Positions 1,901 through 29,249 of a DNA stretch of 64,000 bases are shown here, piece after piece. The stretch comes from a bacterium (GTDB taxonomy: Bacteria > Verrucomicrobiota > Kiritimatiellia > CAIKKV01 > CAITUY01). The position numbers were made by a program, and so were the translations under genes. The stretch spans positions 518-64,517 of the forward strand of contig JBAXPK010000007.1 in the NCBI GenBank assembly GCA_037132275.1, written 5' to 3'. Numbering within the stretch: position 1 is the stretch's first letter; each line of letters begins with the position of its first letter. Below the pieces are notes generated by a model. It made no database searches and was not told the origin of the DNA. It saw nothing but the letters and a program-made list of their open reading frames with translations.

Positions 1901-1940
1901 GAACCCGGAGACAACGAGTGTTGTCTCCGGGTTCTCTTTA
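1901..1940 (+). terminator. Rho-independent terminator
   Basis: Perfect 15-bp inverted repeat GAACCCGGAGACAAC / GTTGTCTCCGGGTTC (1901-1915 and 1920-1934) with a 4-nt loop, followed by TCTTT. It lies 28 nt after the stop of the upstream CDS. Confidence 0.7.
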
Positions 1941-2055: not shown

Positions 2056-3438
2056 TTGAAATTTATGAGCCAGACAAACAACAACGAAACAGAAGAGAAA
2101 CGGTTCTCCAAATGGCATACTGCCAGTGCGTGCCTCGGCTTGTGTTTCTTTTGCCTGGTATGGGGGGGGATATCCGTCCAGCATGGGTTTTTCCCTGGGT
2201 ATTTGCTTCGCAACGCCTATGAGGGGGCCAAAGCGGCAAGGGCTAGCTTGCACTATTGGCACATGCGATATAGCGACGACCTCTGGTCGACAAACCGGTT
2301 TTCGCGTAGTGGTGTCACGATTCATGACCCGGCCAGGACGTTTGAGGGCTACACCTTGTATACGTCCGGACACAGTCAGGCAGCGGTGCTGATGGATATG
2401 GGCGGGAAGGTTGTCCATGAATGGAAACTGCCCTATGACCAAATATGGGATTCGTCCGGCGAGGTGAAATATCCCCGCCCTCCCCACCAGGTCTTCTGGT
2501 TCAAGGCGAAGGTCTTTCCGAATGGCGATCTTATGGCCGTTGTGGAAGGAAATGGGGGCACACCCTGGGGCCAGGGAATCATCAAGATAGACCGCGATTC
2601 CCGCCTCATCTGGAAGTACCTGGGCTGTGCGCATCACGACTTCAGCATCGGCGACGACGGACGCGTCTACGGGTTGACGCATGCCATCCGTGAGGAACCC
2701 CTAACTAACCTGCCGCTGAGCTATCCCTGCCTGGAAGATTTTGTCGTGGTGCTGTCGCCGGACGGCAAAAAGGAGCAGCAGGTCTCGATGTTCGAAGCCC
2801 TCGCCAATTCGCGTTACAGGCGGGCTCTGGAAGCGGCGCCGAAAACCCCCTACGGGGAATATCTCCATTGCAACGCGGTTCGCGTGGTTGACAAACAGAT
2901 CGTGCGGAATTTCCCCTTTGCGCATGAGGGGCAGGTATTTGTTTCGATCCGTGAATTCAGCGCCGTGGTGCTTGTTGATCTCAGTAAGCGTTCGGTCGTG
3001 AACGCGCTGATTGGTTCATGGAGGTATCAGCATGATCCGGACTTTCTGGATAACGGCCACGTCATGCTCTTCGATAACTATGGCAACATGGAGGATGGGG
3101 GGATTTCGCGTGTCATCGAGTTTGATCCCCTGACCGGCGGCGTGGTGTGGTCTTACCATGGTACGGATGCCAACCCCCTGAGCAGCGAGAAGCGGTCGAA
3201 CGCCCAGCGGCTGCCCAATGGGAACACGCTCATCACGGAATCGGATTCAGGAAGACTCCTCGAAGTGACGACCCAAGGTGACGTGGTCTGGGAATTCATC
3301 AATCCCGTCAGGGGTGGAAAGAAAGGGGAGCTCATCCCGGTCATCAGCACCGGCGAGCGCATCGCGCCGGAAAGCCTCGATCCGTCGTTCCGCGACACTC
3401 TTGCTTCAAAACAAACTCAAACGAAAGGCTCACCGTGA
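2056..3438 (+). CDS. Arylsulfotransferase (ASST)-like beta-propeller protein with an N-terminal transmembrane anchor
   Basis: The ORF opens at TTG 2056; the first ATG is at 2065 (MSQTNNN...). An N-terminal hydrophobic segment is present (ACLGLCFFCLVWGGISV). Repeated propeller-like blocks with HHDF, NGHVMLFDNYGN and NGNTLITESDSGRLLEVTTQGDVVWEF are reminiscent of the Arylsulfotran_2/ASST families. It is the first gene of a sulfation operon. Confidence 0.45.
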   Translation: MKFMSQTNNNETEEKRFSKWHTASACLGLCFFCLVWGGISVQHGFFPGYLLRNAYEGAKAARASLHYWHMRYSDDLWSTNRFSRSGVTIHDPARTFEGYTLYTSGHSQAAVLMDMGGKVVHEWKLPYDQIWDSSGEVKYPRPPHQVFWFKAKVFPNGDLMAVVEGNGGTPWGQGIIKIDRDSRLIWKYLGCAHHDFSIGDDGRVYGLTHAIREEPLTNLPLSYPCLEDFVVVLSPDGKKEQQVSMFEALANSRYRRALEAAPKTPYGEYLHCNAVRVVDKQIVRNFPFAHEGQVFVSIREFSAVVLVDLSKRSVVNALIGSWRYQHDPDFLDNGHVMLFDNYGNMEDGGISRVIEFDPLTGGVVWSYHGTDANPLSSEKRSNAQRLPNGNTLITESDSGRLLEVTTQGDVVWEFINPVRGGKKGELIPVISTGERIAPESLDPSFRDTLASKQTQTKGSP

Positions 3439-3446
3439 ATACACGC

Positions 3447-3695
3447 ATGACCGTATTTTTGTTAGCCATTGTAAGTCTCTTTGGCATTGTGCCTTCGGCC
3501 ATGGCTTATGTCGGACCCGGTGCGGGACTGACGCTGGTCGGATCGTTTATCGGGCTTTGCCTCACCCTGTTGGTGGCTTTGTGGGCTGTCCTTTCGTGGC
3601 CGATTCGCAGACTGCTTAAGCGCAGGGGACGGGGCGCTTCAGGTGGAGAAAAGGCTCCTGAGATGGATCACACACATGACAGCCCCTCTTCTTGA
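3447..3695 (+). CDS. Small hydrophobic membrane protein (2 predicted transmembrane segments)
   Basis: ATG at 3447 lies 9 nt after the ASST-like stop. The sequence MTVFLLAIVSLFGIVPSAMAYVGPGAGLTLVGSFIGLCLTLLVALWAVLSW is strongly hydrophobic with a basic tail. No homolog recognised. Confidence 0.35.
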   Translation: MTVFLLAIVSLFGIVPSAMAYVGPGAGLTLVGSFIGLCLTLLVALWAVLSWPIRRLLKRRGRGASGGEKAPEMDHTHDSPSS

Positions 3696-4131
3696 CCTGA
3701 TTGACACGCGTTTGCTGGGATTCCTGCCTGACTTGGCTAAAATCGCGGTGTGGGCCGTGCTGTGCAGCATCATCTCCATGGCACTCTACCGGTGGCTTTC
3801 CCCGCAGAAGCGGCTGGCGGCGGCCAAAGATGACGCCAACCGGACGCGCCTGACGCTTTCCCGCTACGATGGTCCAGGGGACGGGTTGCCCCCGCTCATC
3901 AGGGCATCGTTACTCGCGGCACTCCGGCATATGGGTTTGTGTTTGGGGCCCGCTCTTGTGTCTTCAATTCCCGTGATCGCCATATTCCTATGGATGAACG
4001 CCGTCTACGGCACACCGGCGCGGGACACCCTGTCATTCGGCCCGTCCTGGTTCAGGGCATGGTATGTGCCGTTCAGTGTCGTCATGCTGGCGGCATCACT
4101 GACGATCAAGAAGGTGTGGCGCATTGTGTAG
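3676..4131 (+). CDS. Hypothetical membrane protein
   Basis: Internal ATG (MTAPLLDL...) of ORF 3643..4131 was chosen to minimise overlap. Hydrophobic segments AKIAVWAVLCSIISMALY, SIPVIAIFLWMNAVY and FSVVMLAASLTI are present. No homolog recognised. Confidence 0.35.
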   Translation: MTAPLLDLIDTRLLGFLPDLAKIAVWAVLCSIISMALYRWLSPQKRLAAAKDDANRTRLTLSRYDGPGDGLPPLIRASLLAALRHMGLCLGPALVSSIPVIAIFLWMNAVYGTPARDTLSFGPSWFRAWYVPFSVVMLAASLTIKKVWRIV

Positions 4132-4155
4132 GCGGGGTCTGCTGGAGTAAGGTTC

Positions 4156-5280
4156 ATGGACAAAACAACACAAGAGAGTTCGGACTTTCAGGTTGACTGG
4201 TTGACAAACCGATTGAGCCAATGGGTCTGGAAGTCGCCGGGGCGTGCTGTTCGGCTGGGGAACCATGAGAGCCGGTGGTTTGCCGATGAATTACAGTCCT
4301 GCCCGGTTCAGAAGCCGGTGTTCATTGCGGGGTTGGCAAGGTCGGGAACCACGATCCTGCTGGAGTTCATGGCGATGCTAGACGGGGTGGCCACCCATCG
4401 ATACCGTGATTTCCCGCTGGTGCATATGCCTATCTGGTGGAACGAGTTCCTGAACCTCACTCCCCGGAAACGCATGGAGCCCGTCGAAAGGAGCCATCGC
4501 GACGGCATTGTGATCACGCCCGAAAGCCCGGAGGCGATGGAAGAGCCCCTCTGGATGAGTTTCTTTCCGCTGGCCCACGACTCGGCGGTCAGCCAGGTGC
4601 TGAATGCGGCCACGGTGAACCCGGGATTTGAAGCGTTTTTCCAAGACCACTTGCGCAAGATCCTGTTCGTGCGCCAGGGTCGCCGCTATGTGTCGAAGGG
4701 CAATTACAACGTCACGCGGCTCGAGTATCTCCTGCGTCTGTTTCCGGACGCACGGTTTGTGGTGCCGGTGCGGGAACCTGCGGGGCACGTGGCTTCACTC
4801 ATCAAGCAGCACCGCATCTTCGGCGAAAATCTTCGAGGCAATCCGCGTGCGCTTGAGTATCTGCGCCGCGTTGGGCACTTCGAATTCGGGCCGGACAGGC
4901 GGGCGATCAATGTGGGGGACACGGTCCTGGCCCGGGAGATTGAAGCGTTGTGGGCCGCCGGCGAAGAGGTGCGTGGTTGGGCCCGATACTGGGCCTCCAT
5001 CCATGGTTTCCTTGCGGGGCGCATGGAATCGGATCCGCTCTTTCGGAAGGCTGTACGACTGGTTCGGTTTGAGGAACTGTGCGAGCGGCCGGCCGCTGAA
5101 CTCAGGAAGATCGCGGAGCATGGTGAGTTTACAGATGCCGCGCGAGGCGCGGACTCTTTCGCGGAACGAATTCGGTTCCCTCGGTACTACGCGCCTTCGT
5201 TCAGTGAAGCCGACGGGATGGCCATTAAGGACGAAACGGCGTCCGTGTTCATGCGACTCATGCGTCTCCAACAACAATGA
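4156..5280 (+). CDS. PAPS-dependent sulfotransferase
   Basis: Carries the 5'-PSB-type P-loop of sulfotransferases (FIAGLARSGTTILLEFM). Size (374 aa) and downstream helical regions fit the sulfotransferase fold. It sits directly upstream of pstS-like and the PAPS-synthesis genes. Confidence 0.6.
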   Translation: MDKTTQESSDFQVDWLTNRLSQWVWKSPGRAVRLGNHESRWFADELQSCPVQKPVFIAGLARSGTTILLEFMAMLDGVATHRYRDFPLVHMPIWWNEFLNLTPRKRMEPVERSHRDGIVITPESPEAMEEPLWMSFFPLAHDSAVSQVLNAATVNPGFEAFFQDHLRKILFVRQGRRYVSKGNYNVTRLEYLLRLFPDARFVVPVREPAGHVASLIKQHRIFGENLRGNPRALEYLRRVGHFEFGPDRRAINVGDTVLAREIEALWAAGEEVRGWARYWASIHGFLAGRMESDPLFRKAVRLVRFEELCERPAAELRKIAEHGEFTDAARGADSFAERIRFPRYYAPSFSEADGMAIKDETASVFMRLMRLQQQ

Positions 5281-5293
5281 AAGGGCTCGTATT

Positions 5294-6244
5294 ATGAAGA
5301 ACAGGCAGTTTTATAATGGGATGTCGGTATTACTTGCCGTGGTTTCGCTTCTGGGCGCAGGCTGCGGTAAGCGGCAGACTGCGCCGGAGGCCCGGATCAC
5401 GGTTTCGGGTGCCTGGGCGCTTTACCCGATGATGGTGAAATGGGCGGAAGAATATAGGAAGTCACATCCCGGGATTCAGATCGATATTTCTGCAGGCGGA
5501 GCCGGAAAAGGGATGACGGATGCCTTATCAGGCGCCGCCGATATCGGCATGGTTTCACGGGATATCAATCCCTCCGAAGCGGGTAAGGGGGCATGGTGGG
5601 TGGCGGTGGTCAAGGATGCCGTGATTCCCGTCATGAATGCCTCAAACCCGAACGGCGGCATCCTCGCCAAACGGGGTCTCAAGAAAGAGGAATTTACCGC
5701 CATCTTTGTGAAGGGAAATGTTCAGGATTGGAGTTTTGCGGGCGGCACACCAACTCCGCTTCATGTTTATACTCGATCAGACGCCTGCGGCGCAGCGGAA
5801 ACCTGGGCCAAGTATCTTGGCGCCAAGCAGGAAGACTTGAAGGGAACCGCCGTTTACGGGGATCCCGGCGTGGCCGAAGCCGTGCGCAAAGACGTGTCAG
5901 GCATCGGGTTCAATAATCTGATTTTCGCCTATGACATCAAGAGCGGTCAACCCCTTCCGGGTATATGCGTCATCCCCATCGACAGCAATGGGAACGGCGC
6001 CGTGGATCCCGGGGAGGATTTCTATGGGACCCACAAGGCGGTCATGCAGGCAATTGCTACGGGGCGTTATCCCTCCCCGCCAGCCCGTGATCTGAATCTG
6101 GTGCATCATGGGCCCCCCCCGTCCGGACCTGTTGCCGATTTTATCAAGTGGGTGCTTGCGGAGGGGCAAGCGTTTGTATCCGAAGCCGGCTATATCGCCC
6201 TGCCCGCTGAAATCCTCAACAGCCAGAAGGCAAAGCTGAAATAG
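5294..6244 (+). CDS. pstS: PstS-family periplasmic oxyanion-binding lipoprotein (phosphate-binding protein homolog)
   Basis: Signal peptide plus lipobox (LLAVVSLLGAGCGK). Alignable to E. coli PstS: SGAWALYPMMVKWAEEY against TGAGATFPAPVYAKWADTY, and SAGGAGKGMTDALSGAADIGMVSRD against [22 protein letters not shown]. Contains a C8 tract at 6113-6120. Confidence 0.65.
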   Translation: MKNRQFYNGMSVLLAVVSLLGAGCGKRQTAPEARITVSGAWALYPMMVKWAEEYRKSHPGIQIDISAGGAGKGMTDALSGAADIGMVSRDINPSEAGKGAWWVAVVKDAVIPVMNASNPNGGILAKRGLKKEEFTAIFVKGNVQDWSFAGGTPTPLHVYTRSDACGAAETWAKYLGAKQEDLKGTAVYGDPGVAEAVRKDVSGIGFNNLIFAYDIKSGQPLPGICVIPIDSNGNGAVDPGEDFYGTHKAVMQAIATGRYPSPPARDLNLVHHGPPPSGPVADFIKWVLAEGQAFVSEAGYIALPAEILNSQKAKLK

Positions 6245-6247
6245 GCC

Positions 6248-7150
6248 ATGGATCGTGATTCCATACGACAGGGACTGGATTGCTGGGGCCGCCGAGGCAT
6301 GGTTGCGACGGTGGCGATGTGCATTTTACTCCTACTGCTTATGGCGATGGGCCTGCTGTGGAAATCCTGGCCCATTCTTAGCTCACATTCACTGGCAGGC
6401 CTGTTTCTTTCCAGCGTCTGGAAACCCCATGGAGGGCAGTTCGGATTTCTGGCCTTCATTCTGGGTTCCTTATGCATTACCGGAGTAGCGGTGCTGCTGG
6501 CCGCGCCGGTTTCGTTGTTAACGTCCATCTATCTGTCCGAATATGCCGGACGCCGGATCCGGGCGTTGATGTCGCCCCTGATCGATCTCCTGGCGGGCAT
6601 TCCCTCGGTGGTTTACGGGGTGTGGGGAGTGCTGGTGGTCGTTCCCCTGGTGAAAGATCATCTAGCGCCGGTATTCGGCCGATATTCATCCGGGTATTGC
6701 GTTCTTTCCGCCGGGGTGGTGCTGGCCATCATGATTTTGCCTGTCGTCATTCATGTGGGCCTGGATGTGTTGAAGTCCGTTCCCCAGGGGTTGCGCGAGG
6801 CCTCCCTGTCACTGGGCGCGAATCGGTGGGAAACGGTGAAGCATGTAGTATTGCGGCGTGCGGCGCCGGGCCTGTTGGCCGCCAATGTTTTAGGCGTGTC
6901 GCGGGCCTTTGGCGAGACGATGGCCGTTCTCATGGTGGCGGGGAACGTCGCCGTGACTCCGAAATCCGCATTCGATCCCGCCTACCCGCTACCCGCGCTC
7001 ATTGCCAACAACTACGGCGAGATGATGTCGATCCCGCAGTATGACTCCGCCCTGATGCTGGCGGCGCTCATGCTTTTCGTGGTGGTACTGGGTTTCAATT
7101 TATTGTCGCGCTGGGTTTTTGCCCGTATGGAGTTGCGCATTTCAGGATGA
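6248..7150 (+). CDS. pstC: Pst-type ABC transporter permease (PstC-like)
   Basis: Six-TM permease with the EAA-like loop (...LREASLSLGANRWETVKHVVLRRAAPGL...), positioned between pstS and pstA homologs. Confidence 0.65.
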   Translation: MDRDSIRQGLDCWGRRGMVATVAMCILLLLLMAMGLLWKSWPILSSHSLAGLFLSSVWKPHGGQFGFLAFILGSLCITGVAVLLAAPVSLLTSIYLSEYAGRRIRALMSPLIDLLAGIPSVVYGVWGVLVVVPLVKDHLAPVFGRYSSGYCVLSAGVVLAIMILPVVIHVGLDVLKSVPQGLREASLSLGANRWETVKHVVLRRAAPGLLAANVLGVSRAFGETMAVLMVAGNVAVTPKSAFDPAYPLPALIANNYGEMMSIPQYDSALMLAALMLFVVVLGFNLLSRWVFARMELRISG

Positions 7151-7154
7151 ACCC

Positions 7155-8003
7155 ATGAGAAAGCAGATTGAAGAAATTGCCGCCAAAATCCTGATGATCG
7201 GAGCCGCCGTGGTGGTGGCCGGGATGGTCGTTTTGATTCTCGGAACCGTGTTATGGCGCGGCCTCCCGGCGTTGAGTTGGGAAATGATCTCGCAGACTCC
7301 GTCCGGCGGTTACTATCTCGGAAAGGGCGGCGGCATTCTCAATGCCATCGTCGGGTCACTTTCGGTGGCCGGTGGCGCAACCCTGCTGTCGCTCGGCCTG
7401 GCTTTGCCAGTGGCGTTGAGCCTGAATGTCTATTTCAAGACCCATTCCCGACTGGCGGGTTGCGTCAGGGGCTCGTTGGATGTGCTGTGGGGTGTGCCCT
7501 CCATTGTCTATGGCGCCTTCGGGTTTGCGTTTATGCTTTGGCTCGGACTCCGCGCTTCCCTCCTGGGGGGGATTATCACCGTGGCTTTGATGATCCTCCC
7601 CATCATGATCCGGGCCATGGATGAAGTGATTCACATGGTTCCGCACGAGATGCTGGAAGCCTCCGATGCCCTGGGTGCCACCCGGTGGGAGGGCGCCTGG
7701 AAGGTAATCCTCCGGCAGGCGCTTCCCGGACTTGCCAGCGCGGCGCTGATCGCCTTCGGGCGGGGGATCGGGGATGCCGCCTCTGTTCTTTTCACGGCGG
7801 GATTTTCGGACCGGATTCCGATGTCACTTGCGGATCCTGCTGCGACCCTGCCGCTGGCCATATTCTTCCAGTTGGGTACCCCGTTCCCGGAGGTTCAGCA
7901 ACGGGGCTATGCTGCGGCGCTGATATTAACGGCCATCGTGCTGACGGCCAGCGCTCTGGCGCGTCTGGTCAGCCATCGGGCGGGACGGTTTGTAATTCGA
8001 TGA
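7155..8003 (+). CDS. pstA: Pst-type ABC transporter permease (PstA-like)
   Basis: ATG at 7155 lies 4 nt after the pstC stop; the longer 7119 start would overlap. TM-rich sequence with the EAA motif (EASDALGATRWEGAWKVILRQALPGL). Confidence 0.65.
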   Translation: MRKQIEEIAAKILMIGAAVVVAGMVVLILGTVLWRGLPALSWEMISQTPSGGYYLGKGGGILNAIVGSLSVAGGATLLSLGLALPVALSLNVYFKTHSRLAGCVRGSLDVLWGVPSIVYGAFGFAFMLWLGLRASLLGGIITVALMILPIMIRAMDEVIHMVPHEMLEASDALGATRWEGAWKVILRQALPGLASAALIAFGRGIGDAASVLFTAGFSDRIPMSLADPAATLPLAIFFQLGTPFPEVQQRGYAAALILTAIVLTASALARLVSHRAGRFVIR

Positions 8004-8013
8004 AGGACATACC

Positions 8014-8775
8014 ATGACAGCCAATACCCCTATTGAAGTGAAAGACCTGAATGTGCATTACGGCACGATCCATGCTTTGAAAAATATCCACGTTAGTATC
8101 CCCAATTGCCAGATCACGGCAGTCATCGGCCCCTCGGGGTGCGGTAAGTCTACCTTGTTGCGTTCGTTCAACCGCATGCTCGACACCATGGATGATGTGC
8201 GGGTCACAGGCGGGGTGCTGGTCGACGGTGAGAATATTTTTGCGGCCAATGCGGATGTGCCGCGTCTACGCCGCAAGATGGGACTGCTTTCTCAGCGGCC
8301 GTTTCTCCTGCCTATGTCGATCTATGACAATGTGGCCTACGGGCCGCGCATCCATGGGATCAGCCGCCATTCCGACCTGGATTGCACCGTGGAAAAATAC
8401 CTCCGGATGGCCAACATGTGGGATGAGGTCAAGGATCGTCTTCGCGAGCCCGCTGCAAAGCTGTCGATCGGTCAACAGCAACGGCTCTGCCTGGCGCGGG
8501 GCCTCGCTGTGGAACCCGAGATTATCCTGGCGGACGAGCCCACCTCGGCGCTGGACCCGATTTCAAGCCGTCACATTGAACAACAATTCCGAGAGTTACG
8601 GGCTGACTACACGCTGGTGATGGTGACCCATATTCTTCGGCAGGCCCGTCGCCTGGCCGACTATGTGCTTTTCATGTATCTGGGTGAACTCATCGAGCAC
8701 GGGCCGGCGGCCGAACTGTTTGAGAATCCCCGCGAGGAATTGACGAAGGATTATATCAAGGGAACGATCAGTTAG
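8014..8775 (+). CDS. pstB: Pst-type ABC transporter ATP-binding protein (PstB-like)
   Basis: Near full-length colinearity with E. coli PstB: Walker A AVIGPSGCGKSTLLR, PMSIYDNVAYG, LSIGQQQRLCLARGLA, ILADEPTSALDPIS and LFMYLGELIEHG. Length of 253 aa matches PstB rather than CysA. Confidence 0.8.
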   Translation: MTANTPIEVKDLNVHYGTIHALKNIHVSIPNCQITAVIGPSGCGKSTLLRSFNRMLDTMDDVRVTGGVLVDGENIFAANADVPRLRRKMGLLSQRPFLLPMSIYDNVAYGPRIHGISRHSDLDCTVEKYLRMANMWDEVKDRLREPAAKLSIGQQQRLCLARGLAVEPEIILADEPTSALDPISSRHIEQQFRELRADYTLVMVTHILRQARRLADYVLFMYLGELIEHGPAAELFENPREELTKDYIKGTIS

Positions 8776-8786
8776 GAGGCCAGGCC

Positions 8787-9308
8787 ATGGTGAGTAGTAA
8801 GATTCAACCTGCAGTCGTGTGGTTCACCGGATTATCAGGGTCCGGCAAGAGTACCCTTGCTGAGAAGGTGGAGCACGCCCTGAAGATGCGTGGCGTGGAC
8901 ACCGAGATTCTGGATGGCGACCGGGTTCGCGCGGTCTTTCCGAGCATCGGGTTCTCCCTTGAGGAGCGCAACGCGCATATCCGCCGCATGGGCTTCATGG
9001 CGGGTCTCCTTGAGAAACACGGTGTGGTGGTGCTGGCGAGTTTCGTGTCGCCTTATGCAGAGGCCCGCCAGGCGGCGCGGTGGCAATGCCGCAATTTTAT
9101 TGAGGTCTATCTTTCCACCCCCCTCGCCGAATGCGAGCGGCGCGATGTGAAAGGTCTCTACGGCAAGGCGCGCCGGGGCGAGATCTCCAACTTCACCGGA
9201 GTCAGTGATCCGTATGAAGTTCCGGAGAATCCGGATCTGGTTATCGACACCACCGCCATGAGTGTGGAGGAATCTGTTGCCCTGGTTCTGGGGAGATTGC
9301 AGTCATGA
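8787..9308 (+). CDS. cysC: Adenylylsulfate (APS) kinase
   Basis: [16 protein letters not shown] Walker A and an LDGDRVR loop. A 173-aa standalone kinase domain. Confidence 0.8.
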
Positions 9309-10210
9309 CAATCCATTCCCTGACCCATTTGAAGCAACTGGAAGCCGAGAGCATTCATATCATGCGCGAGGTGGCCGCAGAATTCGAGCGGCCGGTCATG
9401 CTTTACTCGGTCGGGAAAGACTCATCGGTCATGGTGCGGCTGGCCCAGAAGGCCTTTTACCCCGGACGGATTCCCTTTCCACTGATGCATGTGGATACAG
9501 GTTTCAAATTCGGGGAGATGATTGAGTTCCGTGACCGGTTTGTGAAGGAGATCAAGGCGGATCTTATTGTGCATCAGCATGAAAAATCAGCCGACCTGTC
9601 GGTGAATCCCTTTGCCCTCGGAACCCAGAAGTGCTGTGCGATACTTAAGACGCAGGCTCTGGTGGAAGCCATACGCAAACATAAGTTTGACGCCGCTTTC
9701 GGGGGCGCCCGCCGCGAGGAGGAGAAATCGCGGGCCAAGGAGCGGGTGTTCTCCTTTCGGGACGAGCTCGGGCAGTGGGATCCCAAAAACCAGCGTCCGG
9801 AACTGTGGAGCCTCTATAATACCCGGGTCAACACAGGCGAATCCATCCGAGTATTCCCCATCTCCAACTGGACCGAGTTGGATGTCTGGCAATATATCTA
9901 CATGGAAAAGATTCCGGTGGTGCCCATGTACTTTGCGCAGGAGCGCGACATGATTGTGAGGGATGAGCAGTTGATTCCGTTCCAGGAAACCACGCCGCTC
10001 AAACCGGGCGAACACCCCTGCAAAGTGCTGAGTCGATTCCGCACCCTGGGCTGTTATCCCTGTACCGGGGCCATCCGGTCATCGGCGTCAACGGTGGCGG
10101 AAATCATCGAGGAAATGATGGTCGTACGCATCTCCGAACGTTCGACCCGCGTGATTGATCATGACGCCGAGGGCTCGATGGAAATGAAGAAACGGGAAGG
10201 GTATTTCTAG
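9305..10210 (+). CDS. cysD: Sulfate adenylyltransferase subunit 2 (CysD/NodP)
   Basis: Near-identical block structure to E. coli CysD: [38 protein letters not shown] (PP-loop SxGKDS), [22 protein letters not shown] and [15 protein letters not shown] overlap with cysC. Confidence 0.9.
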
Positions 10211-10211
10211 A

Positions 10212-12143
10212 ATGAATGCGATTGAGGCATTTCTGGCGGAGAATGAGAAGAAGGATCTGCTTCGGTTTTCGACGGCGGGCAGCATTGACGACGGCAAGTC
10301 AACCCTGATCGGCCGTTTACTGCACGACTCAAAGAATGTCTACGAGGATACGCTGGCGTCGATCAAAAAGGCGTCTCGTGAAAAAATGTCGGAGGAACAG
10401 ATCGACCTTGCCTTGCTCACTGACGGTCTTAAGGCAGAACGCGAGCAGGGGATCACCATTGACGTCGCCTACCGCTATTTTTCGACACCGCGCCGGAAAT
10501 TCATCATCGCCGACACGCCCGGACACGAGCAATACACCCGGAATATGGCGACCGGCGCCTCGACCGCCAATCTTTCGGTTGTGCTGGTGGATGCGCGTCA
10601 TGGCATCCTTCCCCAGACGCGGCGCCATGCGTTTATCGCCTCCCTGCTGGGGGTGCCGCACATGATTGTGGCCGTGAACAAAATGGATGCCGTGGACTAT
10701 CGGGAAGACGTCTTTCAGGCGATTCGCGACGAGTTCGCTGAGTTTGCCTCGAAGCTGGGCATCAAGGATCTGCGTTTCATTCCGCTGAGTGCCCTCAAGG
10801 GCGATAACGTCGTCCATCGCAGTGGAAACATGACCTGGTACCGGGGCGAAAGCCTGATGGAAATCCTGGAGAACGTCTACATCGGCAGCGACCATAATCT
10901 CGTGGATCTGCGGTTCCCCATCCAATATGTGGTGCGCCCGGATATGGGCTTCCGCGGCTATGCCGGAGTTGTCACCTCCGGTGTCATCCGTCGGGGGGAT
11001 GAGGTGTTGGCGCTCCCTTCGATGAAAGTCAGCCGGGTCAAATCGATTGTCACCTTTGATGGCGACGTGGAAGAGGCCTGTTCGCCCATGTCGGTAACGG
11101 TCACCCTGGAAGACGAGCGTGATATCAGCCGCGGGGAAATGCTGGTCCGTCCGCATAACCTTCCCAAAATGGACCGGCGTTTTGAAGGCATGGTGGTGTG
11201 GATGGGGGATGCCCCAATGGATCTGAATGCCAGCTATTTCATCAAGCACACCACCCGCCTGACCCGGTGCCGGGTGGACGAAATCCGTTACAAGGTGAAT
11301 GTGAACACCCTGGCCAGAGAGGCCATGACGGGACTCGCCTTGAATGACATTGGCCGGGTTGTCTTCACCGCCAATCAACCCCTGTTCAGTGATTCCTACG
11401 AGAAGAACCGGGGAACCGGCTCATTTATCCTGATTGACCCCGTGACCAACGCCACTGCGGCAGCCGGGATGATCATTGATCGCGAACCAGCGGAACAGCT
11501 TGTTTCCCGCATCACCCCCGGGGTAGGGGCGCACACGATGAGCCGGCATGGCCGCCAGATCGAGGCCGGGGAGCGGGTGGCGCGTTATGGGCAGAAGCCG
11601 GCGACCCTGTGGCTGACCGGTCTGGTGGGATCGGGAAAATCAAGTCTGGCTGGCGCGCTAGAGCGGAAGCTTTTCGACTTGGGCGCCGTCAGCGTTGTCC
11701 TCGATGGTTCGAATGTGCGGTCGGGCCTCAACCGTGAACTGGATTTCACGTCCGAGGGGATGGCCGAACATCTCCGCCGCGTCGCTGAGATGGCTCGGCT
11801 CCTGAACGATGCCGGGTTGGTGGTTATATGCGCCTTTGTTTCCCCTCATGAAAAGGTGCGCCGGCAGGTGGCTGAAATTATTGGAATCGACCGGTTTCTG
11901 GAAGTTCACGTGGATGCGCCCCTTGAGTGGTGCCAGGCTCACGACCACACTGGGTTCTATCAGCGGGCCGAGGTAGGCGAGGTGCGCAACGTGGCGGGCA
12001 TCAGTTTTCCTTATGAAGCGCCGACCACGCCCTCGCTCAGGGTGTCGACGCCGGATATGACGCCTGAAGGTGCTGTATCAATCGTCATGAACCTGCTGCG
12101 TAAACAAGGGATATTCCCGGTCGGTGCTCTCTCAAATGAGTGA
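10212..12143 (+). CDS. cysN: Bifunctional sulfate adenylyltransferase subunit 1 (GTPase) / APS kinase, NodQ-like
   Basis: N-terminal EF-Tu-like GTPase ([27 protein letters not shown]). C-terminal APS kinase ([33 protein letters not shown]). 643 aa. Confidence 0.85.
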
Positions 12144-12176
12144 AGTTAATACTTTGCTGGCAGGGGTGATGCCTAA

Positions 12177-12590
12177 TTGAAGATTCCAAACAGCGTGGAA
12201 CGCGTTCTTAAATTTGGCGTGGTCGGGGTCTTGACCTTCGCGCTGGATCTTATTCTTCTTTATGTTTGTATCGACTGGTTGGAATGGAATTACATTATCG
12301 CGACGGGAATCGCGTTCACAATGGCCGTTTCTGTAAACTATTATGGCGACCGGCGCTGGGTGTTCAAAGGCACTCTCAGGTCCATCCGGGCGGGGTATGT
12401 TATTTTCATGGTCATCGGATGCGTGGGCGCGGCCATTGCCATGGTCGGCATGTCCGTCCTCGTGGGGGTTTTCCACATTCATTATTTTGCATCGCGCATC
12501 GCCATTGCGAGCCTGGTGGGCCTGTGGAACTATTTCATGAACCTCTATGTAAACTTTCAGGTGACAGGCAAGCACGGGGAGGCTTCCTGA
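12177..12590 (+). CDS. GtrA-family membrane protein
   Basis: TTG start. FGVVGVLTFALDLILLYVCIDWLEWNYIIATGIAFTMAVSVNYYGDRRWVF is typical of GtrA-like four-TM proteins associated with glycan translocation. Confidence 0.55.
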   Translation: MKIPNSVERVLKFGVVGVLTFALDLILLYVCIDWLEWNYIIATGIAFTMAVSVNYYGDRRWVFKGTLRSIRAGYVIFMVIGCVGAAIAMVGMSVLVGVFHIHYFASRIAIASLVGLWNYFMNLYVNFQVTGKHGEAS

Positions 12591-12633: not shown

Positions 12634-12664
12634 CATCTAACGTGAGCGTTGTTGTTTCCTAACA
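12634..12664 (+). promoter_or_regulatory. Bipartite conserved motif CATCTAACG-N10-TGTTTCCTAACA (copy 1)
   Basis: Sits 42 nt upstream of the ATG at 12707. An identical bipartite arrangement with the same 10-nt spacer recurs at 12922-12952. Confidence 0.4.
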
Positions 12665-12706: not shown

Positions 12707-12895
12707 ATGAAATGTTTAAAATGCAACGACGAAGTAGATATTAAGAAGAACGAAATCCCGCCACGTTGGTACGGGCATTACGAGAACGCGAAACTCGCGA
12801 AGCTCATGTGCGTGGAATGCCTTGTGACCCATAAAGAGATATGGGATTTGGTACGGACGGGGTGTGGGGGTGGTAAGCAAGCCCTTTCGGCTTGA
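12707..12895 (+). CDS. Small zinc-ribbon-like protein (62 aa, CxxC...CxxC)
   Basis: Strong Shine-Dalgarno AAGGAGGA 7 nt upstream. Cys pairs at C3/C6 and C35/C38 (MKCLKCN...MCVECLV). Flanked by the conserved motif pair. Confidence 0.4.
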   Translation: MKCLKCNDEVDIKKNEIPPRWYGHYENAKLAKLMCVECLVTHKEIWDLVRTGCGGGKQALSA

Positions 12896-12921: not shown

Positions 12922-12952
12922 CATCTAACGAGCGGGTCGCTGTTTCCTAACA
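12922..12952 (+). promoter_or_regulatory. Bipartite conserved motif CATCTAACG-N10-TGTTTCCTAACA (copy 2)
   Basis: Same 9-mer and 12-mer with the same spacing as copy 1. It lies 51 nt upstream of the ATG at 13004. Confidence 0.4.
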
Positions 12953-16810: not shown

Positions 16811-17823
16811 TGGCACACCAGTATGTGGAACGGCGGAGTGCGTGCGCCGTCGGCGAGACGTTTTTTGGCGACCCGGTTGTCTCTTTTTTGTATTCACGGA
16901 TCCGTGAGGAGTCAGGGTGGTTGTACCGGGCGCTGACCTCATCCCGGCTGACCAACCTGCTGGGGATATTGCAGTTCGATGTCCGTCCCCGCGATCCCGC
17001 CCGTATGCGTTGGCGGCTGGCATCGGCGTGTGGAGTGGACTTTTCGGAATGTGCCGACCCGTTGGAGACTCTCGATACGGCGCGCAAGGTCTTTGAGCGC
17101 AAGATTCGCTATTGGGAGTGCAGGCCCATGGATCCCGATCCCGGGGCGATCGTATCCCCTTCGGATGCCCGTCTCTTGGTGGGTTCGTTCCAAAAGGTTT
17201 CCGGTTTGTTGCTCAAAGAAAAATTCTTCCGCTTCGAGGAATTGTTGGGCGATGATAAACTCGGCTGGCAGGAATCGTTCCGCGGCGGGGATTATGCCGT
17301 GTTACGACTGACGCCCGACAAGTACCATCGCAACCATGCGCCCGTGACCGGGGTGGTGAGGGATATCTACGAAGTGGACGGGGTCTTCCAGTCCTGCCAC
17401 CCCGCTGTCGTCATTGCCCAGGCCACGCCCTATTCCAAGAACCGGCGGACGGTTACGATCATTGACACCGATGTGCCGGGCGGAACACAAGCCGGGCTGG
17501 TGGCGATGGTCGAGGTGGTGGCGCTGATGATTGGCGAGATTGTGCAGTATTACTGTCAGGAGCGATACGATGCCCCCTTGGCAGTGTATAAAGGATTGCA
17601 CCTCTTGCGAGGATGCCCAAAGAGTCTGTTCCGCCCCGGCAGTTCCACGGTTGTGCTGGTGTTTCAACCGGGGCGCATCCGGTTTAGCGAGGATCTTGTG
17701 GCAAACCTCCGGCGTACCGATGTGAGGAGTTGTTACAGCGATGGAGAAGGAGGCGCCGTGGTGGAAACCGATGTGGCAGTCAGGTCAACCATTGCCCGCG
17801 TCGTTCCGGGAGGCCAGGCATGA
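16807..17823 (+). CDS. psd: Phosphatidylserine decarboxylase proenzyme (pyruvoyl-dependent)
   Basis: LTPDKYHRNHAPVTGVVRDIYEVDG against E. coli [25 protein letters not shown]. A GSST-type self-cleavage site (FRPGSSTVVLVF against KLGSTVINLF). 338 aa. Confidence 0.7.
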   Translation: MMAHQYVERRSACAVGETFFGDPVVSFLYSRIREESGWLYRALTSSRLTNLLGILQFDVRPRDPARMRWRLASACGVDFSECADPLETLDTARKVFERKIRYWECRPMDPDPGAIVSPSDARLLVGSFQKVSGLLLKEKFFRFEELLGDDKLGWQESFRGGDYAVLRLTPDKYHRNHAPVTGVVRDIYEVDGVFQSCHPAVVIAQATPYSKNRRTVTIIDTDVPGGTQAGLVAMVEVVALMIGEIVQYYCQERYDAPLAVYKGLHLLRGCPKSLFRPGSSTVVLVFQPGRIRFSEDLVANLRRTDVRSCYSDGEGGAVVETDVAVRSTIARVVPGGQA

Positions 17824-27400: not shown

Positions 27401-27614
27401 CGCCATTCCCGATGTGTACACCAAGAAGCTAGCAACGGTTAACCTGGGTCTGACACAGAAGCTTACCAAGACTGTAAGTTGCACCGTCGGTGCCCAGAAC
27501 CTTCTGGATCAGGAGATCCGGGAAGTTTACCGGCTGCCGGATGGCAAGGAGATCCCCAAACGAAGCTACCGCGAAGGGATTCGCTACACCTTCAGCATTT
27601 CAGGAACCTGGTAA
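24384..27614 (+). CDS. TonB-dependent outer-membrane receptor with an N-terminal carboxypeptidase-regulatory-like domain
   Basis: ATG at 24384 gives a signal peptide MSRNPKGWLLAVVLITGLAWALPTCGQ. CarbopepD-like region (IQVVELNKGQVTSEDGHFIVEGLPPGNYTITVSKPGYERHV). Plug domain (ATVRGMSDRYVGVALNGMRVPSSDP). C-terminal aromatic residue (...SISGTW). Confidence 0.75.
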   Translation: MSRNPKGWLLAVVLITGLAWALPTCGQIPFGGIRGSVSDAEFGGPAAQATIQVVELNKGQVTSEDGHFIVEGLPPGNYTITVSKPGYERHVQSAVIVVAGALTDLAIELKGEFTEMEELTVRDLELTDTASETGLLNLRRNTLSFQDSVSKDMMRRAGASDAAGALKLVVGASVVDGKYATVRGMSDRYVGVALNGMRVPSSDPKKRAVQLDIFPSGTIESMTVSKTFTADLPGDYSGGGVNIRTISIPEKPFMKASLSREVNGQFTGKDGFVTYDGSGCSQWGRDQGSRAMPTDLANMTRNPILTSSIIAGGSLPSSFSLHNQLVDADHPQDPVYAEYDRITRSLSPAMGVKFTKVPDGNYGYSLSGGSRKDVGGGWTAGGIGAFTYSDKFTVQDAAEQSYSRAEFGGVNLADNNQFRRQTGSQEVKDSMLASVGLAQGDEQAFGFTWLRTQAATDRASIRNDMTFPNTMPVDAQVDRVQGIQYTERSTDSKQYTWHRKFDPVEVELFGAHNVVRQYDPDTRRFKEQVSRSGPEEWNFIIPQPSSVMSVYNAARIWRDIEEDNTQEGINLNLPFKANDSDGRFKLGALKDMTQRSFTQSAFTYLGVSRFRQKPPADSSDADAQKWYTNDVKSADFKTTSSDPSALWTDTFTADNNIGAGPYQNEMRWYIIPQIGQNNVNYQASQDLPSGYWMLDYPLTSRLKALAGARLEVTDISIDPISAYEAIQPGSYSYSVLTLESGAYSFKPATRADVQTHMQEADWLRSMGLVYELAPKMNLRVNWSQTIARPTIRELAPVLSVDPIENENFVGNPNLKVSHVENDDVRWEWFRKPGEVWAVSWFYKKITDPIEKISFNYYGDPYVVAVNYPEGQVSGMEYEARKDLDFLPGPFGYLHVGANYTRMKSLVVLPDEYANRLKNYDLYPEERDPSDEYVSPFDQFAKGFVFSFFNMEDVGKSKGATRDMEGQPDFLFNFNLGYDIEKWGTSINWFYNIRGDMLKTGAAVADYAIPDVYTKKLATVNLGLTQKLTKTVSCTVGAQNLLDQEIREVYRLPDGKEIPKRSYREGIRYTFSISGTW

Positions 27615-27618
27615 TTCA

Positions 27619-29246: not shown

Positions 29247-29249
29247 TTC

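What the first reader, a model, noticed from the sequence alone, without database searches (positions are those of the whole stretch)
2056..12590. A roughly 10 kb sulfation super-operon supplies PAPS to two sulfotransferases rather than to sulfur assimilation
Eleven co-directional genes have gaps of 0-33 nt or ATGA-type overlaps. They encode an ASST-like protein, two small membrane proteins, a PAPS-dependent sulfotransferase, pstSCAB-like genes, cysC, cysD, a NodQ-like cysN/cysC fusion, and a GtrA-like protein. No APS/PAPS reductase or sulfite reductase is present. The architecture therefore resembles NodPQ-type dedicated PAPS production for sulfating a glycan or lipid. The GtrA protein and the downstream EPS locus make a sulfated surface polysaccharide or glycolipid the obvious candidate product. 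The roles of the ASST-like protein and the two tiny membrane proteins are unexplained.
Basis: partly seen in the sequence, partly recalled or inferred. Interest (0 to 1): 0.7.

Follow-up and report, generated by a model that had tools for sequence, protein, structure and literature searches.

The report
Sulfate uptake, activation and sulfation operon
Twelve tightly packed genes appear to import sulfate, turn it into the sulfate donor PAPS, and feed a widespread but unstudied four-gene module. That module pairs a cytoplasmic PAPS-using sulfotransferase with a membrane-anchored outward-facing aryl-sulfotransferase-like enzyme, which may explain how bacteria sulfate molecules outside the cytoplasm.

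Summary
Twelve (not eleven) co-directional genes at 2065-12590 are spaced -32 to +33 nt, and every family assignment was confirmed. No APS/PAPS or sulfite reductase lies in the 64 kb.

The interpretation needs three corrections.
1. The ASST-like protein belongs to the PAPS-independent aryl-sulfotransferase fold. Its best structural match is Cpz4, the second enzyme of the caprazamycin two-step sulfation. The two enzymes therefore probably act in series, not in parallel on PAPS.
2. The ASST-like protein, both small membrane proteins and the PAPS sulfotransferase form a four-gene cassette. It keeps the same order in 34-39 of 62 loci from at least seven phyla. The pst/cys/GtrA genes are linked to it only in the window's closest relatives. 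The EPS locus lies 22 kb away, so the acceptor is unknown.
3. The 'pstSCAB' genes belong to a distinct subfamily. Its binding protein has lost five of six phosphate-ligating hydroxyls and the proton acceptor. Elsewhere it sits beside cysH, cysDN, sat, sulfite reductase and Rrf2 regulators, never PhoU. It is probably a sulfate importer.

The APS-kinase domain fused to CysN is degenerate, which explains the separate cysC.

Verdict: a real operon and a new variant of known sulfation systems. The mechanism is inferred, not shown.

The parts
1901..1939 (+). Terminator-like hairpin (15-bp stem, 4-nt loop, then TCTTT) after the upstream Big_7-domain gene. It marks the likely 5' boundary of the transcription unit.
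   Evidence: Read directly from the sequence. It was not picked up by the consensus scan because the T-run is short.
2065..3438 (+). g1: ASST/Cpz4-like six-bladed beta-propeller with an N-terminal transmembrane anchor. Predicted to be extracytoplasmic and a PAPS-independent sulfuryl transferase.
3447..3695 (+). g2: small membrane protein. It has a signal peptide with an AxA site, an invariant Tyr-(V/I)-Gly-Pro-Gly-Ala-Gly at the predicted mature N-terminus, one TM helix, then WP(I/L/V)R and a basic tail.
   Evidence: Conserved next to the cassette. There are 1463 cluster representatives at E<=1e-3. Of the best 150, 145 carry Y[VI]GPGxG and 119 have AxA immediately before it. In locus L039 the module is fused to a Phosphodiest-family enzyme.
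3676..4131 (+). g3: three-TM membrane protein with a basic helical hairpin between TM1 and TM2. This is the short form; most relatives carry an insert of about 95 aa (motif HKKxWWN) between TM2 and TM3.
   Evidence: Conserved next to the cassette in 32 loci. Alignment. The AF2 model is weak (pLDDT 64, four helices). There is no significant fold match; the top hit is a TMCO1 chain at E 0.47.
4156..5280 (+). g4: cytoplasmic PAPS-dependent sulfotransferase (Sulfotransfer_3). It has a 5'-phosphosulfate-binding loop GLARSGTT and no signal peptide or TM segment.
   Evidence: PF13469 E 1.8e-15. The nearest solved relatives are mycobacterial Stf proteins and TPST1/2, all weak at E about 0.007. Sequence shown. 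It has 62 relatives in genome contigs.
5294..6244 (+). g5: lipoprotein substrate-binding protein of a divergent PstS (S-type) subfamily. Predicted to bind sulfate.
   Evidence: PF12849 E 6e-32, but TIGR02136 scores 91 bits against a cut-off of 206. Binding residues are replaced relative to C. perfringens PBP-1. The replacements are invariant in the subfamily. Context is sulfur assimilation.
6248..7150 (+). g6: PstC-type ABC permease.
   Evidence: TIGR02138 274 bits, above the 196 cut-off.
7119..8003 (+). g7: PstA-type ABC permease.
   Evidence: TIGR00974 184 bits, cut-off 193.
8014..8775 (+). g8: PstB-type ABC ATPase.
   Evidence: TIGR00972 331 bits, cut-off 343.
8787..9308 (+). g9: canonical APS kinase CysC.
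   Evidence: PF01583 E 9e-56. Motifs [28 protein letters not shown] and NFTG are intact.
9305..10210 (+). g10: sulfate adenylyltransferase small subunit CysD.
   Evidence: NF009214 477 bits, above the 413 cut-off.
10212..12143 (+). g11: CysN GTPase subunit fused to an APS-kinase-like domain with degenerate catalytic motifs.
   Evidence: GTP_EFTU E 1.8e-44 and APS_kinase E 5e-50. DGD is changed to DGS, KGLYKKAR to TGFYQRAE, and NFTG to NVAG.
12177..12590 (+). g12: GtrA-family small membrane protein, the last gene of the block. It is linked only in this lineage.
   Evidence: PF04138 E 1e-18. Present after cysNC in L002 at 89% identity and absent from the other cassette loci.

Best explanation
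This is one transcription unit built from three modules.

**Module A (g5-g8): sulfate import.** This ABC importer descends from the Pst phosphate family. Its binding protein has a remodelled anion pocket, and it most likely takes up sulfate.

**Module B (g9-g11): sulfate activation.** CysD and CysN make APS, and the stand-alone CysC makes PAPS. The kinase-like domain fused to CysN is probably catalytically dead or regulatory.

**Module C (g1-g4): sulfation cassette.** This self-contained cassette occurs in many diderm phyla. The cytoplasmic Sulfotransfer_3 enzyme (g4) spends PAPS to make a sulfate ester on a carrier at the inner face of the membrane. The carrier is presumably phenolic. The two small membrane proteins (g2, g3) present or move that sulfuryl group across the membrane. 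The membrane-anchored, outward-facing ASST/Cpz4-like propeller (g1) then passes it to a final acceptor outside the cytoplasm. This resembles the Cpz8 -> aryl sulfate -> Cpz4 two-step sulfation, but spans the membrane.

GtrA (g12) is a lineage-specific addition and hints at a lipid-linked acceptor.

**Shown:** gene content, spacing, families, fold, motif conservation, cassette conservation and transporter context.
**Inferred:** sulfate specificity, serial action of the two enzymes, the roles of g2 and g3, and the acceptor.
For: **Operon structure.**

**Families.**

**Precedent for serial action.** Cpz8 is PAPS-dependent and Cpz4 is an ASST-type enzyme. They act in series through a phenolic sulfate (PMC4257720; PMC13426309).

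**Cassette conservation.**
- g1-g2-g3-g4 occur in the same order and on the same strand in 34 loci, and 5 more lack only a detectable g2.
- Hosts include Alpha- and Gammaproteobacteria, Planctomycetota, Flavobacteriaceae, Pontiella, Gemmatimonadaceae and Tepidisphaeraceae.
- No other neighbour is conserved.

**Variant cassettes.** Some loci keep g2, g3 and g4 but replace g1 with Sulfatase-family and Phosphodiest-family enzymes. In one locus the g2 module is fused to the Phosphodiest-family enzyme. This ties g2 to an enzyme that handles sulfate or phosphate esters outside the cytoplasm.

**Transporter binding site.** Relative to C. perfringens PBP-1, S11/T12/S13/S41/S129/T131 become A40/W41/A42/A70/C165/A167. 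R125, G130 and S59 are kept (with residue roles from PMC5381212). The changes are invariant in the subfamily.

**Transporter context.**
- Neighbours in 83 loci: Rrf2 16, CysH 6, CysD 5, CysN 5, sulfite reductase 4, CysK 3, Sat 3, TauE 3, PhoU 0.
- 13 of 36 long loci carry a sulfur-assimilation gene, against 1 of 53 control loci (Fisher p 1.7e-5).
- A Kiritimatiellae MAG repeats the arrangement Rrf2, transporter, a different Sulfotransfer_3 gene, cysC, cysD, cysNC.

**Degenerate fused kinase domain.**
Against: - No experiment exists and no carrier has been identified. Unlike the Cpz system, no type III PKS or other phenol-making enzyme lies in the window or is conserved near the cassette.
- g2 and g3 have no recognisable family, and the g3 model is poor.
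- The catalytic-residue correspondence for g1 rests on sequence alignment to Cpz4 and on remembered E. coli ASST numbering. It was not checked by superposing coordinates.
- The subfamily SBP keeps Arg161, Asp163 and Ser88. A tested canonical S-type PstS (SphX) does not bind sulfate (PMC13614923). Specificity must therefore come from the substitutions, and this is untested.
- About half of the long transporter loci show no sulfur gene nearby.
- PhoU absence was tested only by tblastn with two queries and by a top-25 Pfam tally.
- Single-transcript status is inferred from spacing only.
Confidence: 0.45

Rival explanations
1. Both sulfotransferase-like proteins act in parallel on PAPS to decorate a surface polysaccharide or glycolipid. 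That product is made by the downstream EPS locus and flipped with help from GtrA.
For: PAPS synthesis genes, a PAPS-type sulfotransferase and GtrA share one block. An EPS locus with Poly_export, GNVR, Wzy_C, GT2/GT4, Bac_transf and a MurJ-like flippase lies at 35.0-53.6 kb.
Against: g1 has the PAPS-independent ASST/Cpz4 fold and a predicted periplasmic location. The EPS locus is 22 kb away, behind a phosphatidylserine decarboxylase, a response regulator and a TonB-receptor/ExbBD cluster. The cassette recurs without EPS or GtrA neighbours.
Confidence: 0.12
2. Modules A and B are the organism's ordinary assimilatory sulfate uptake and activation genes, with cysH and cysI elsewhere. The sulfation cassette merely landed upstream and is co-transcribed, so PAPS is not dedicated to sulfation.
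For: The same transporter subfamily sits next to cysH, sulfite reductase, cysK and sat in other organisms. The cassette is normally not linked to PAPS genes: 1 of 53 control loci. Only 64 kb of the genome is visible.
Against: No reductase, cysK or cysE lies within 64 kb. A Kiritimatiellae relative again couples the transporter and cysC/D/NC with a sulfotransferase rather than a reductase. The tight spacing is conserved in L002.
Confidence: 0.2
3. g1-g3 and g4 are functionally independent. The periplasmic ASST-like enzyme exchanges sulfate among environmental phenols, for detoxification or scavenging, as proposed for enterobacterial AssT. g4 sulfates an unrelated cytoplasmic metabolite.
For: Known ASSTs transfer sulfate between exogenous phenols, and their natural role is unknown (PMC13426309).
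Against: The order g1-g2-g3-g4 is strictly conserved across phyla in 34-39 loci, often with overlapping or abutting genes. That is hard to explain without a shared function. The g2/g3/g4 trio persists when g1 is swapped for sulfatase-fold enzymes.
Confidence: 0.13
4. g5-g8 are a genuine low-affinity S-type phosphate transporter. They might, for example, balance phosphate released from PAP and PPi turnover. The substitutions only tune affinity.
For: PstC passes the equivalog cut-off, and PstA and PstB nearly do. Arg161, Asp163 and Ser88 of the binding site are retained.
Against: Five of six hydroxyl ligands and the proposed proton acceptor are lost, and the losses are invariant. No PhoU was found in 83 loci, and the only PhoU-domain gene in the window is 45 kb away on the other strand. 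Sulfur-assimilation genes are significantly enriched nearby.
Confidence: 0.15

Closest known systems
Caprazamycin two-step sulfation (Cpz8 PAPS-dependent sulfotransferase, Cpz6 type III PKS phenol carrier, Cpz4 ASST-type transferase) of Streptomyces sp. MK730-62F2
   Same: A PAPS-dependent sulfotransferase and an ASST-fold enzyme are encoded together. Cpz4 is the best structural match of g1. The mechanism is serial sulfuryl transfer through an aryl sulfate.
   Different: No PKS or other carrier-making enzyme is present. g1 is membrane-anchored and predicted to be periplasmic. Two dedicated small membrane proteins are present. The cassette is not in an antibiotic gene cluster and is widespread in diderm bacteria rather than actinomycetes. 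Identity of g1 to Cpz4 is only 18-19%.
Dedicated PAPS-supply sulfation loci: NodPQ-NodH (rhizobia), RaxPQ-RaxST (Xanthomonas), CysDNC-Stf0 (mycobacteria), BT0411-BT0416 (Bacteroides). Listed from my own knowledge; the NodH/PF13469 link is in PMC11625862.
   Same: CysD, CysN(-C) and an APS kinase are co-located with a PAPS-dependent sulfotransferase. No reductive genes are in the locus.
   Different: Here a transporter is included. The fused kinase domain looks inactive and a separate cysC is present. The sulfotransferase comes as part of a four-gene cassette with an ASST-like partner.
Enterobacterial periplasmic arylsulfate sulfotransferase AssT (PDB 3ELQ)
   Different: g1 lacks the N-terminal beta-sandwich domain. 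It is TM-anchored rather than soluble. It matches PF14269 better than PF05935. It has no dsbL/dsbI neighbours and is instead linked to a PAPS enzyme.
S-type PstS phosphate-binding proteins (C. perfringens PBP-1 4GD5/4Q8R, Synechocystis SphX) with PstCAB
   Same: Best sequence matches of g5. Same Venus-flytrap family PF12849. The permease and ATPase partners are Pst-type.
   Different: Ser11, Thr12, Ser13, Ser41, Ser129 and Thr131 are replaced by Ala, Trp, Ala, Ala, Cys and Ala. No PhoU is nearby. The neighbours are sulfur-assimilation genes and Rrf2 regulators.
Sbp/CysP-CysTWA sulfate ABC transporter (TC 3.A.1.6)
   Same: Predicted substrate and physiological role. Co-location with cysDN, cysH and similar genes.
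   Different: A different ABC family. CysT and CysW models score about 50 bits against cut-offs of 246-329. The binding protein is not Sbp-like.

Membership tests
Dedicated PAPS-supply sulfation locus (NodPQ/NodH type) | ATP sulfurylase (CysD + CysN) and APS kinase encoded together | tested here: met
   CysD 477 bits, CysN GTP_EFTU E 1.8e-44, CysC E 9e-56 with intact motifs.
Dedicated PAPS-supply sulfation locus (NodPQ/NodH type) | PAPS-dependent sulfotransferase in the same transcription unit | tested here: met
   g4 PF13469 E 1.8e-15 with a GLARSGTT PSB loop. Gaps are 33 nt or less along the block. A single transcript is inferred only.
Dedicated PAPS-supply sulfation locus (NodPQ/NodH type) | PAPS not used for assimilation (separate housekeeping genes, or no reductive pathway) | not testable with these tools
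   No cysH or cysI in the 64 kb. The rest of the genome is not available.
ASST (PAPS-independent arylsulfate sulfotransferase) family | Six-bladed beta-propeller fold of AssT/Cpz4 | tested here: met
ASST (PAPS-independent arylsulfate sulfotransferase) family | Catalytic His with supporting His/Asn/Arg residues | tested here: inconclusive
   H193/H194, H271-x-N273, S297-x-R299 and Q-H326-D327 are invariant or nearly so in 27 homologues and align with Cpz4 motifs. The mapping to E. coli His252/His356/Asn358/Arg374/His436 was made by motif, not by superposing coordinates.
ASST (PAPS-independent arylsulfate sulfotransferase) family | Sulfuryl transfer from aryl sulfates without PAPS | not testable with these tools
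   Requires an enzyme assay.
Cpz-type two-step sulfation | PAPS-dependent sulfotransferase and ASST-type transferase encoded together | tested here: met
   g4 and g1 are in one cassette, conserved in 34-39 loci.
Cpz-type two-step sulfation | Dedicated enzyme (type III PKS) that makes the phenolic sulfate carrier | tested here: not met
   No PKS in the window. No conserved neighbour beyond the four genes.
Pst phosphate ABC transporter | PstC, PstA and PstB homologues | tested here: met
   PstC 274 bits against a cut-off of 196. PstA (184/193) and PstB (331/343) fall just below their cut-offs.
Pst phosphate ABC transporter | PstS with the phosphate-ligating Ser/Thr residues and a proton acceptor (Asp, or Ser/Thr in the S-type) | tested here: not met
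   TIGR02136 scores 91 bits against a cut-off of 206. Ser11, Thr12, Ser13, Ser41, Ser129 and Thr131 are replaced by Ala, Trp, Ala, Ala, Cys and Ala, and the replacements are invariant in the subfamily.
Pst phosphate ABC transporter | Association with phoU / the Pho regulon | tested here: not met
   PhoU was found in 0 of 83 loci by tblastn with two PhoU queries and was absent from the top Pfam families of 150 neighbours. Sensitivity is limited.
Sbp/CysPTWA sulfate ABC transporter | CysT/CysW permeases and an Sbp-type binding protein | tested here: not met
   CysT and CysW models score about 35-51 bits against cut-offs of 246-329. It may work like this system, but it is not a member.
GtrA family | GtrA/DPMS transmembrane domain | tested here: met
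   PF04138 E 1e-18 over residues 12-125. No partner GtrB-type glycosyltransferase is adjacent.

The most novel reading that the evidence does not exclude
The cassette is a trans-envelope sulfuryl relay with a protein-borne carrier. In this reading, the invariant tyrosine exposed at the mature N-terminus of the tiny membrane protein g2 (AxA|Y-V/I-G-P-G-A-G) is the phenolic sulfuryl handle. It would be charged at the expense of PAPS by g4, possibly before insertion, which may be assisted by the three-TM protein g3. The outward-facing ASST-like propeller would then use it to sulfate envelope or extracellular acceptors. That would be the first natural donor system for a bacterial ASST and a way to sulfate molecules where PAPS does not reach. 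Separately, g5-g8 would be the first sulfate importer of the Pst (TC 3.A.1.7) family.
Probability: 0.12. Interest if true: 0.9.

Novelty: new variant of a known kind. Interest (0 to 1): 0.66.

Why it matters
The natural donors, acceptors and physiological role of bacterial PAPS-independent aryl sulfotransferases are still unknown (review PMC13426309). A four-gene cassette that hard-wires such an enzyme to a PAPS-dependent sulfotransferase and two membrane proteins recurs in many phyla. It offers a concrete system to test how the donor is made and how sulfation can happen outside the cytoplasm.

The operon in this window is the most complete version, with import, activation and transfer in one unit. 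That makes it a good candidate for heterologous reconstitution.

If the Pst-like transporter carries sulfate, many genes now annotated as 'phosphate ABC transporter' in anaerobic and sediment bacteria are mis-assigned. Sulfur and phosphorus budgets inferred from metagenomes would then need correction.

Tried and rejected
- **Pfam and NCBIfam on g2 and g3:** no hits.
- **Word-indexed homology search for g3:** only 4 relatives, so the AF2 model was weak (pLDDT 64). Its fold search was non-significant (best E 0.47, a TMCO1 chain). An Oxa1/TMCO1-like reading of g3 (N-out, cytoplasmic helical hairpin, three TMs) remains a lead only.
- **Exhaustive search with g2 for domain fusions:** the top 150 hits were all small stand-alone proteins. 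The one fusion seen (L039) came from the locus analysis.
- **Rfam scan of the whole window:** nothing.
- **Promoter and terminator scan:** nothing above chance.
- **Literature searches** for the cassette, for PF14269 biology, for Pst-like sulfate transporters and for Kiritimatiellae sulfation: no description found.
- **EPS locus as acceptor source:** considered and rejected as an 'obvious' reading because of distance and lack of conserved linkage.
- **Duplicate APS kinases as simple redundancy:** considered, then rejected in favour of a degenerate fused domain.
- **Caveats:** ORFs in fetched loci were called with a simple greedy longest-ORF rule.

Full report
**Observation**

ORF listing and translation show twelve + strand genes between 2065 and 12590, not eleven. 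The gene calls on an identical public contig agree. Gaps between consecutive genes are 8, -20, 24, 13, 3, -32, 10, 11, -4, 1 and 33 nt. A 15-bp hairpin at 1901-1934 follows the upstream Big_7-domain gene. Consensus scans find no excess of internal terminator-like or promoter-like sites. A single transcript is therefore plausible but remains an inference.

| Gene | Assignment | Key score |
|---|---|---|
| g1 | ASST-like | PF14269 E 6.6e-20, PF05935 E 2.3e-7 |
| g4 | Sulfotransferase | PF13469 E 1.8e-15, PF00685 E 2.4e-5 |
| g5 | PstS-like | PF12849 E 6e-32 |
| g6-g8 | PstC, PstA, PstB | 274/196, 184/193, 331/343 bits (score/cut-off) |
| g9 | APS kinase | PF01583 E 9e-56 |
| g10 | CysD | 477 bits |
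| g11 | CysN fused to an APS-kinase domain | GTP_EFTU E 1.8e-44, APS_kinase E 5e-50 |
| g12 | GtrA | PF04138 E 1e-18 |

A survey of the rest of the window found no APS/PAPS reductase, sulfite reductase, ATP sulfurylase of the Sat type, cysteine synthase or CysQ.

**The core is a four-gene cassette**

A scan of one genome per species with the sulfotransferase g4 returned 62 loci. tblastn of all window proteins against them gave these results:
- 34 loci carry ASST-like, small protein 1, small protein 2 and sulfotransferase in that order on one strand.
- 5 more loci lack only a detectable copy of the very short g2.
- 6 contigs are too short upstream to judge.

The hosts are Alpha- and Gammaproteobacteria, Pirellulales and Tepidisphaeraceae, a flavobacterium, Pontiella (Kiritimatiellota), Gemmatimonadaceae and others. 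A Nitrospinota locus and a Bradymonadaceae locus carry rearranged or partial versions. Clustering all neighbouring ORFs found no fifth conserved gene.

The pst-like, cys and GtrA genes accompany the cassette only in the window's closest relatives: L002 at 92% identity, and L003, which is truncated. The PAPS-supply genes are the lineage-specific addition.

**The ASST-like protein (g1)**

An AlphaFold model built from 27 homologues is confident (pLDDT 89.8). It shows an N-terminal helix (13-43, the membrane anchor), a second helix and a propeller.
- Foldseek against the PDB puts Cpz4 (9kf4/9kf6) first, at E 1.6e-15.
- HMMER aligns g1 with Cpz4 through the motifs Y-x-H271-x-N273, Q-H326-D327, F-D-N and LPNGN.
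- These residues, together with H193, H194 and D195, are invariant in the family alignment.

ASST enzymes use aryl sulfates, not PAPS, through a sulfo-histidine intermediate (PMC13426309). Cpz4 is the second enzyme of a documented two-step sulfation. There the PAPS-dependent Cpz8 first sulfates a polyketide phenol, which then donates to Cpz4 (PMC4257720). Basic residues precede the anchor helix, so the propeller should face the periplasm, where PAPS is not available. The title claim 'PAPS to two sulfotransferases' is therefore unlikely. Serial action is the better reading.

**The two small proteins (g2, g3)**

g2 belongs to a large family, with 1463 cluster representatives at E<=1e-3. Of the best 150 members, 145 carry Y-(V/I)-G-P-G-x-G. 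In 119 of them this motif is directly preceded by A-x-A at the end of a typical signal peptide. It is followed by one TM helix, then W-P-(I/L/V)-R and a basic tail. The mature protein would therefore start with an invariant tyrosine at the outer face of the membrane.

g3 has three predicted TM helices, with a basic helical hairpin between TM1 and TM2. Most relatives carry an extra insert of about 95 residues between TM2 and TM3, with an HKKxWWN motif. Its model is weak and has no significant fold match.

Two further observations tie these proteins to extracytoplasmic ester chemistry:
- In Lysobacterales, Woeseiaceae and Wenzhouxiangella loci, g1 is replaced by Sulfatase-family (PF00884) and Phosphodiest-family (PF01663) proteins, while g2, g3 and g4 stay.
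- In L039 the g2 module (signal peptide, YIGPGAG, TM) is fused to the N-terminus of the Phosphodiest-family protein.

**The sulfotransferase (g4)**

g4 has no signal peptide or TM segment. It carries the PSB loop GLARSGTT. It is only distantly related to solved enzymes: mycobacterial Stf proteins and tyrosylprotein sulfotransferases, at E about 0.007. NodH is in the same Pfam family (PMC11625862).

**The 'pst' genes**

g5 is a lipoprotein whose best solved relatives are S-type PstS proteins. In C. perfringens PBP-1, phosphate is held by the following groups (PMC5381212):
- side-chain hydroxyls of Ser11, Thr12, Ser41, Ser59, Ser129 and Thr131;
- Arg125;
- backbone NH groups;
- Ser13, the proposed acceptor of the phosphate proton.

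The HMMER alignment maps these residues onto g5 as follows:

| PBP-1 | g5 |
|---|---|
| Ser11 | Ala40 |
| Thr12 | Trp41 |
| Ser13 | Ala42 |
| Ser41 | Ala70 |
| Ser59 | Ser88 (kept) |
| Arg125 | Arg161 (kept) |
| Ser129 | Cys165 |
| Gly130 | Gly166 (kept) |
| Thr131 | Ala167 |

The motifs SGA(W/F)ALYP, GGAGKG and RSDACGAA are essentially invariant in more than 100 homologues from Spirochaetota, Kiritimatiellae, Bacteroidales and Desulfobacteraceae. Losing the only proton acceptor is what one expects for a fully ionised ligand such as sulfate. This follows the classical contrast between sulfate- and phosphate-binding proteins, which I cite from my own knowledge.

Context agrees with this reading. 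In a Kiritimatiellae MAG the order is Rrf2 regulator, this transporter, DUF2490, a different Sulfotransfer_3 gene, cysC, cysD, cysNC.

A metagenome scan gave 80 more loci. Neighbours, identified by clustering, Pfam and tblastn, were:

| Neighbour | Loci (of 83) |
|---|---|
| Rrf2 | 16 |
| Porin_O_P | 13 |
| Alginate_exp porin | 10 |
| CysH-type reductase | 6 |
| CysD | 5 |
| CysN | 5 |
| Sulfite reductase | 4 |
| CysK | 3 |
| Sat | 3 |
| TauE | 3 |
| PhoU | 0 |

The PhoU result held with a second query, the window's own PhoU-domain protein. Thirteen of 36 loci of at least 9 kb carry a sulfur-assimilation gene, against 1 of 53 control loci centred on the cassette (Fisher p 1.7e-5). The only PhoU-domain gene in the window is at 53800-54453 on the other strand.

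I conclude that g5-g8 most likely import sulfate. Thiosulfate or a related oxyanion cannot be excluded. Canonical S-type SphX does not respond to sulfate (PMC13614923), so the substitutions would have to carry the change of specificity. That is untested.

**Two APS kinases**

The stand-alone CysC keeps all catalytic motifs. The fused domain is probably inactive or regulatory, which explains the apparent redundancy. The Kiritimatiellae relative has the same pair.

**Acceptor and GtrA**

The EPS locus exists: Poly_export, GNVR, deacetylase, Wzy_C, GT4, GT2, Bac_transf, a MurJ-like flippase and methyltransferases, at about 35.0-53.6 kb. It is 22 kb from the operon. The genes in between are a CBM48 protein, unknowns, phosphatidylserine decarboxylase, an LGT-like protein, a response regulator and a TonB-receptor/ExbB/ExbD/TonB cluster.

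GtrA follows cysNC only in this lineage. It hints at a polyprenyl-linked molecule. The acceptor is otherwise unknown.

**Mechanism proposed**

1. Sulfate is imported by g5-g8.
2. It is activated to APS by g10 and g11, and to PAPS by g9.
3. g4 transfers the sulfuryl group to a carrier at the cytoplasmic face of the membrane.
4. g2 and g3 expose that group on the outside.
5. g1 delivers it to the final extracytoplasmic acceptor.

Steps 1 and 2 are well supported. Step 3 is supported by family membership. Steps 4 and 5 are inferred from fold, topology, strict gene linkage and the Cpz precedent.

**Confidence**

| Claim | Confidence |
|---|---|
| Uptake, activation and PAPS-dependent sulfation | about 0.85 |
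| Sulfate specificity of the transporter | about 0.6 |
| The serial trans-membrane relay | about 0.35-0.4 |

**Novelty**

Dedicated PAPS supply next to a sulfotransferase is a known kind of system, and two-step sulfation is known from one actinomycete pathway. Three things appear to be undescribed in the literature I could search:
- the membrane-embedded, PKS-less, phylogenetically widespread cassette;
- its fusion with an uptake and activation module;
- a Pst-family transporter in a sulfur context.

I rate this a new variant of a known kind, with a smaller chance of something categorically new if the relay uses the g2 tyrosine as carrier.

Noticed in passing
window 12634-12664 and 12922-12952 (+): A 31-nt element, CATCTAACG-N10-TGTTTCCTAACA, occurs twice and is not expected by chance (0 in 100 shuffles). 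One copy is upstream of a small Cys-rich ORF and the other is upstream of the CBM48-domain gene. It may be a shared promoter, operator or leader. There is no Rfam match.
   Followed up: partly
window 12707-12895 (+): A 62-aa ORF with a strong AAGGAGG ribosome-binding site and two CxxC pairs (MKCLKCN...CVEC), which looks zinc-ribbon-like. It has no Pfam hit and lies directly after the operon.
   Followed up: no
window 11530-12143 (+), C-terminal domain of g11: The APS-kinase-like domain fused to CysN has degenerate catalytic motifs ([15 protein letters not shown]), while the separate CysC is canonical. The same pairing is seen in Kiritimatiellae locus L064.
   Followed up: partly
window 53800-54453 (-): A lone PhoU-domain protein (PF01895 E 1.7e-13) lies at the edge of the EPS locus, with no pst genes beside it.
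   Followed up: no
window 24234-33304 (+): A TonB-dependent receptor with a CarboxypepD_reg domain is followed by ExbB-like, TonB, TPR, DUF3450, a second ExbB-like and ExbD genes. Together they form a complete outer-membrane uptake unit.
   Followed up: no
window 35014-53637: An EPS or O-antigen-type locus: Poly_export, a GNVR chain-length protein, polysaccharide deacetylase, Wzy_C, a hybrid histidine kinase, a TylF-like methyltransferase, GT4 (two genes), a GH42-like protein, a methyltransferase, GT2, Bac_transf and a MurJ-like flippase.
   Followed up: partly
L039 7737-10106 (-); L047 6330-9568 (+); also L046, L050, L051: These are variant cassettes in Woeseiaceae, Lysobacterales and Wenzhouxiangella. 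The ASST-like gene is replaced by Sulfatase-family and Phosphodiest-family genes next to g2, g3 and g4 homologues. In L039 the g2 module (signal peptide, YIGPGAG, TM) is fused to the Phosphodiest-family protein.
   Followed up: partly
L064 7512-16996 (Kiritimatiellae MAG JAQUPZ010000009.1): A second, independent sulfation operon: Rrf2 regulator, the same Pst-like transporter subfamily, DUF2490, an APS-kinase fragment, a 284-aa Sulfotransfer_3 gene, cysC, cysD and cysNC.
   Followed up: partly
L024, L029, L030 (Gammaproteobacteria), about 1.3 kb upstream of g2 homologues: A conserved 430-aa protein with no Pfam match occupies the position where the ASST-like gene normally sits. It may be another alternative partner.
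   Followed up: no
L083, L088, L090, L097, L098, L108, L114, L119, L123, L124, L126, L132, L137; and L065, L067, L070, L073, L089, L093, L136, L138, L145, L146: The Pst-like transporter subfamily is often preceded by an anion-porin gene: Porin_O_P in 13 loci and Alginate_exp-type in 10. This suggests a dedicated outer-membrane entry route for the same anion.
   Followed up: partly
window 16807-18923 (+): Phosphatidylserine decarboxylase is followed by an LGT-like (PF01790, weak) membrane protein. An 800-aa and a 333-aa protein with no family match precede them. L002 conserves the two unknowns downstream of its operon.
   Followed up: no
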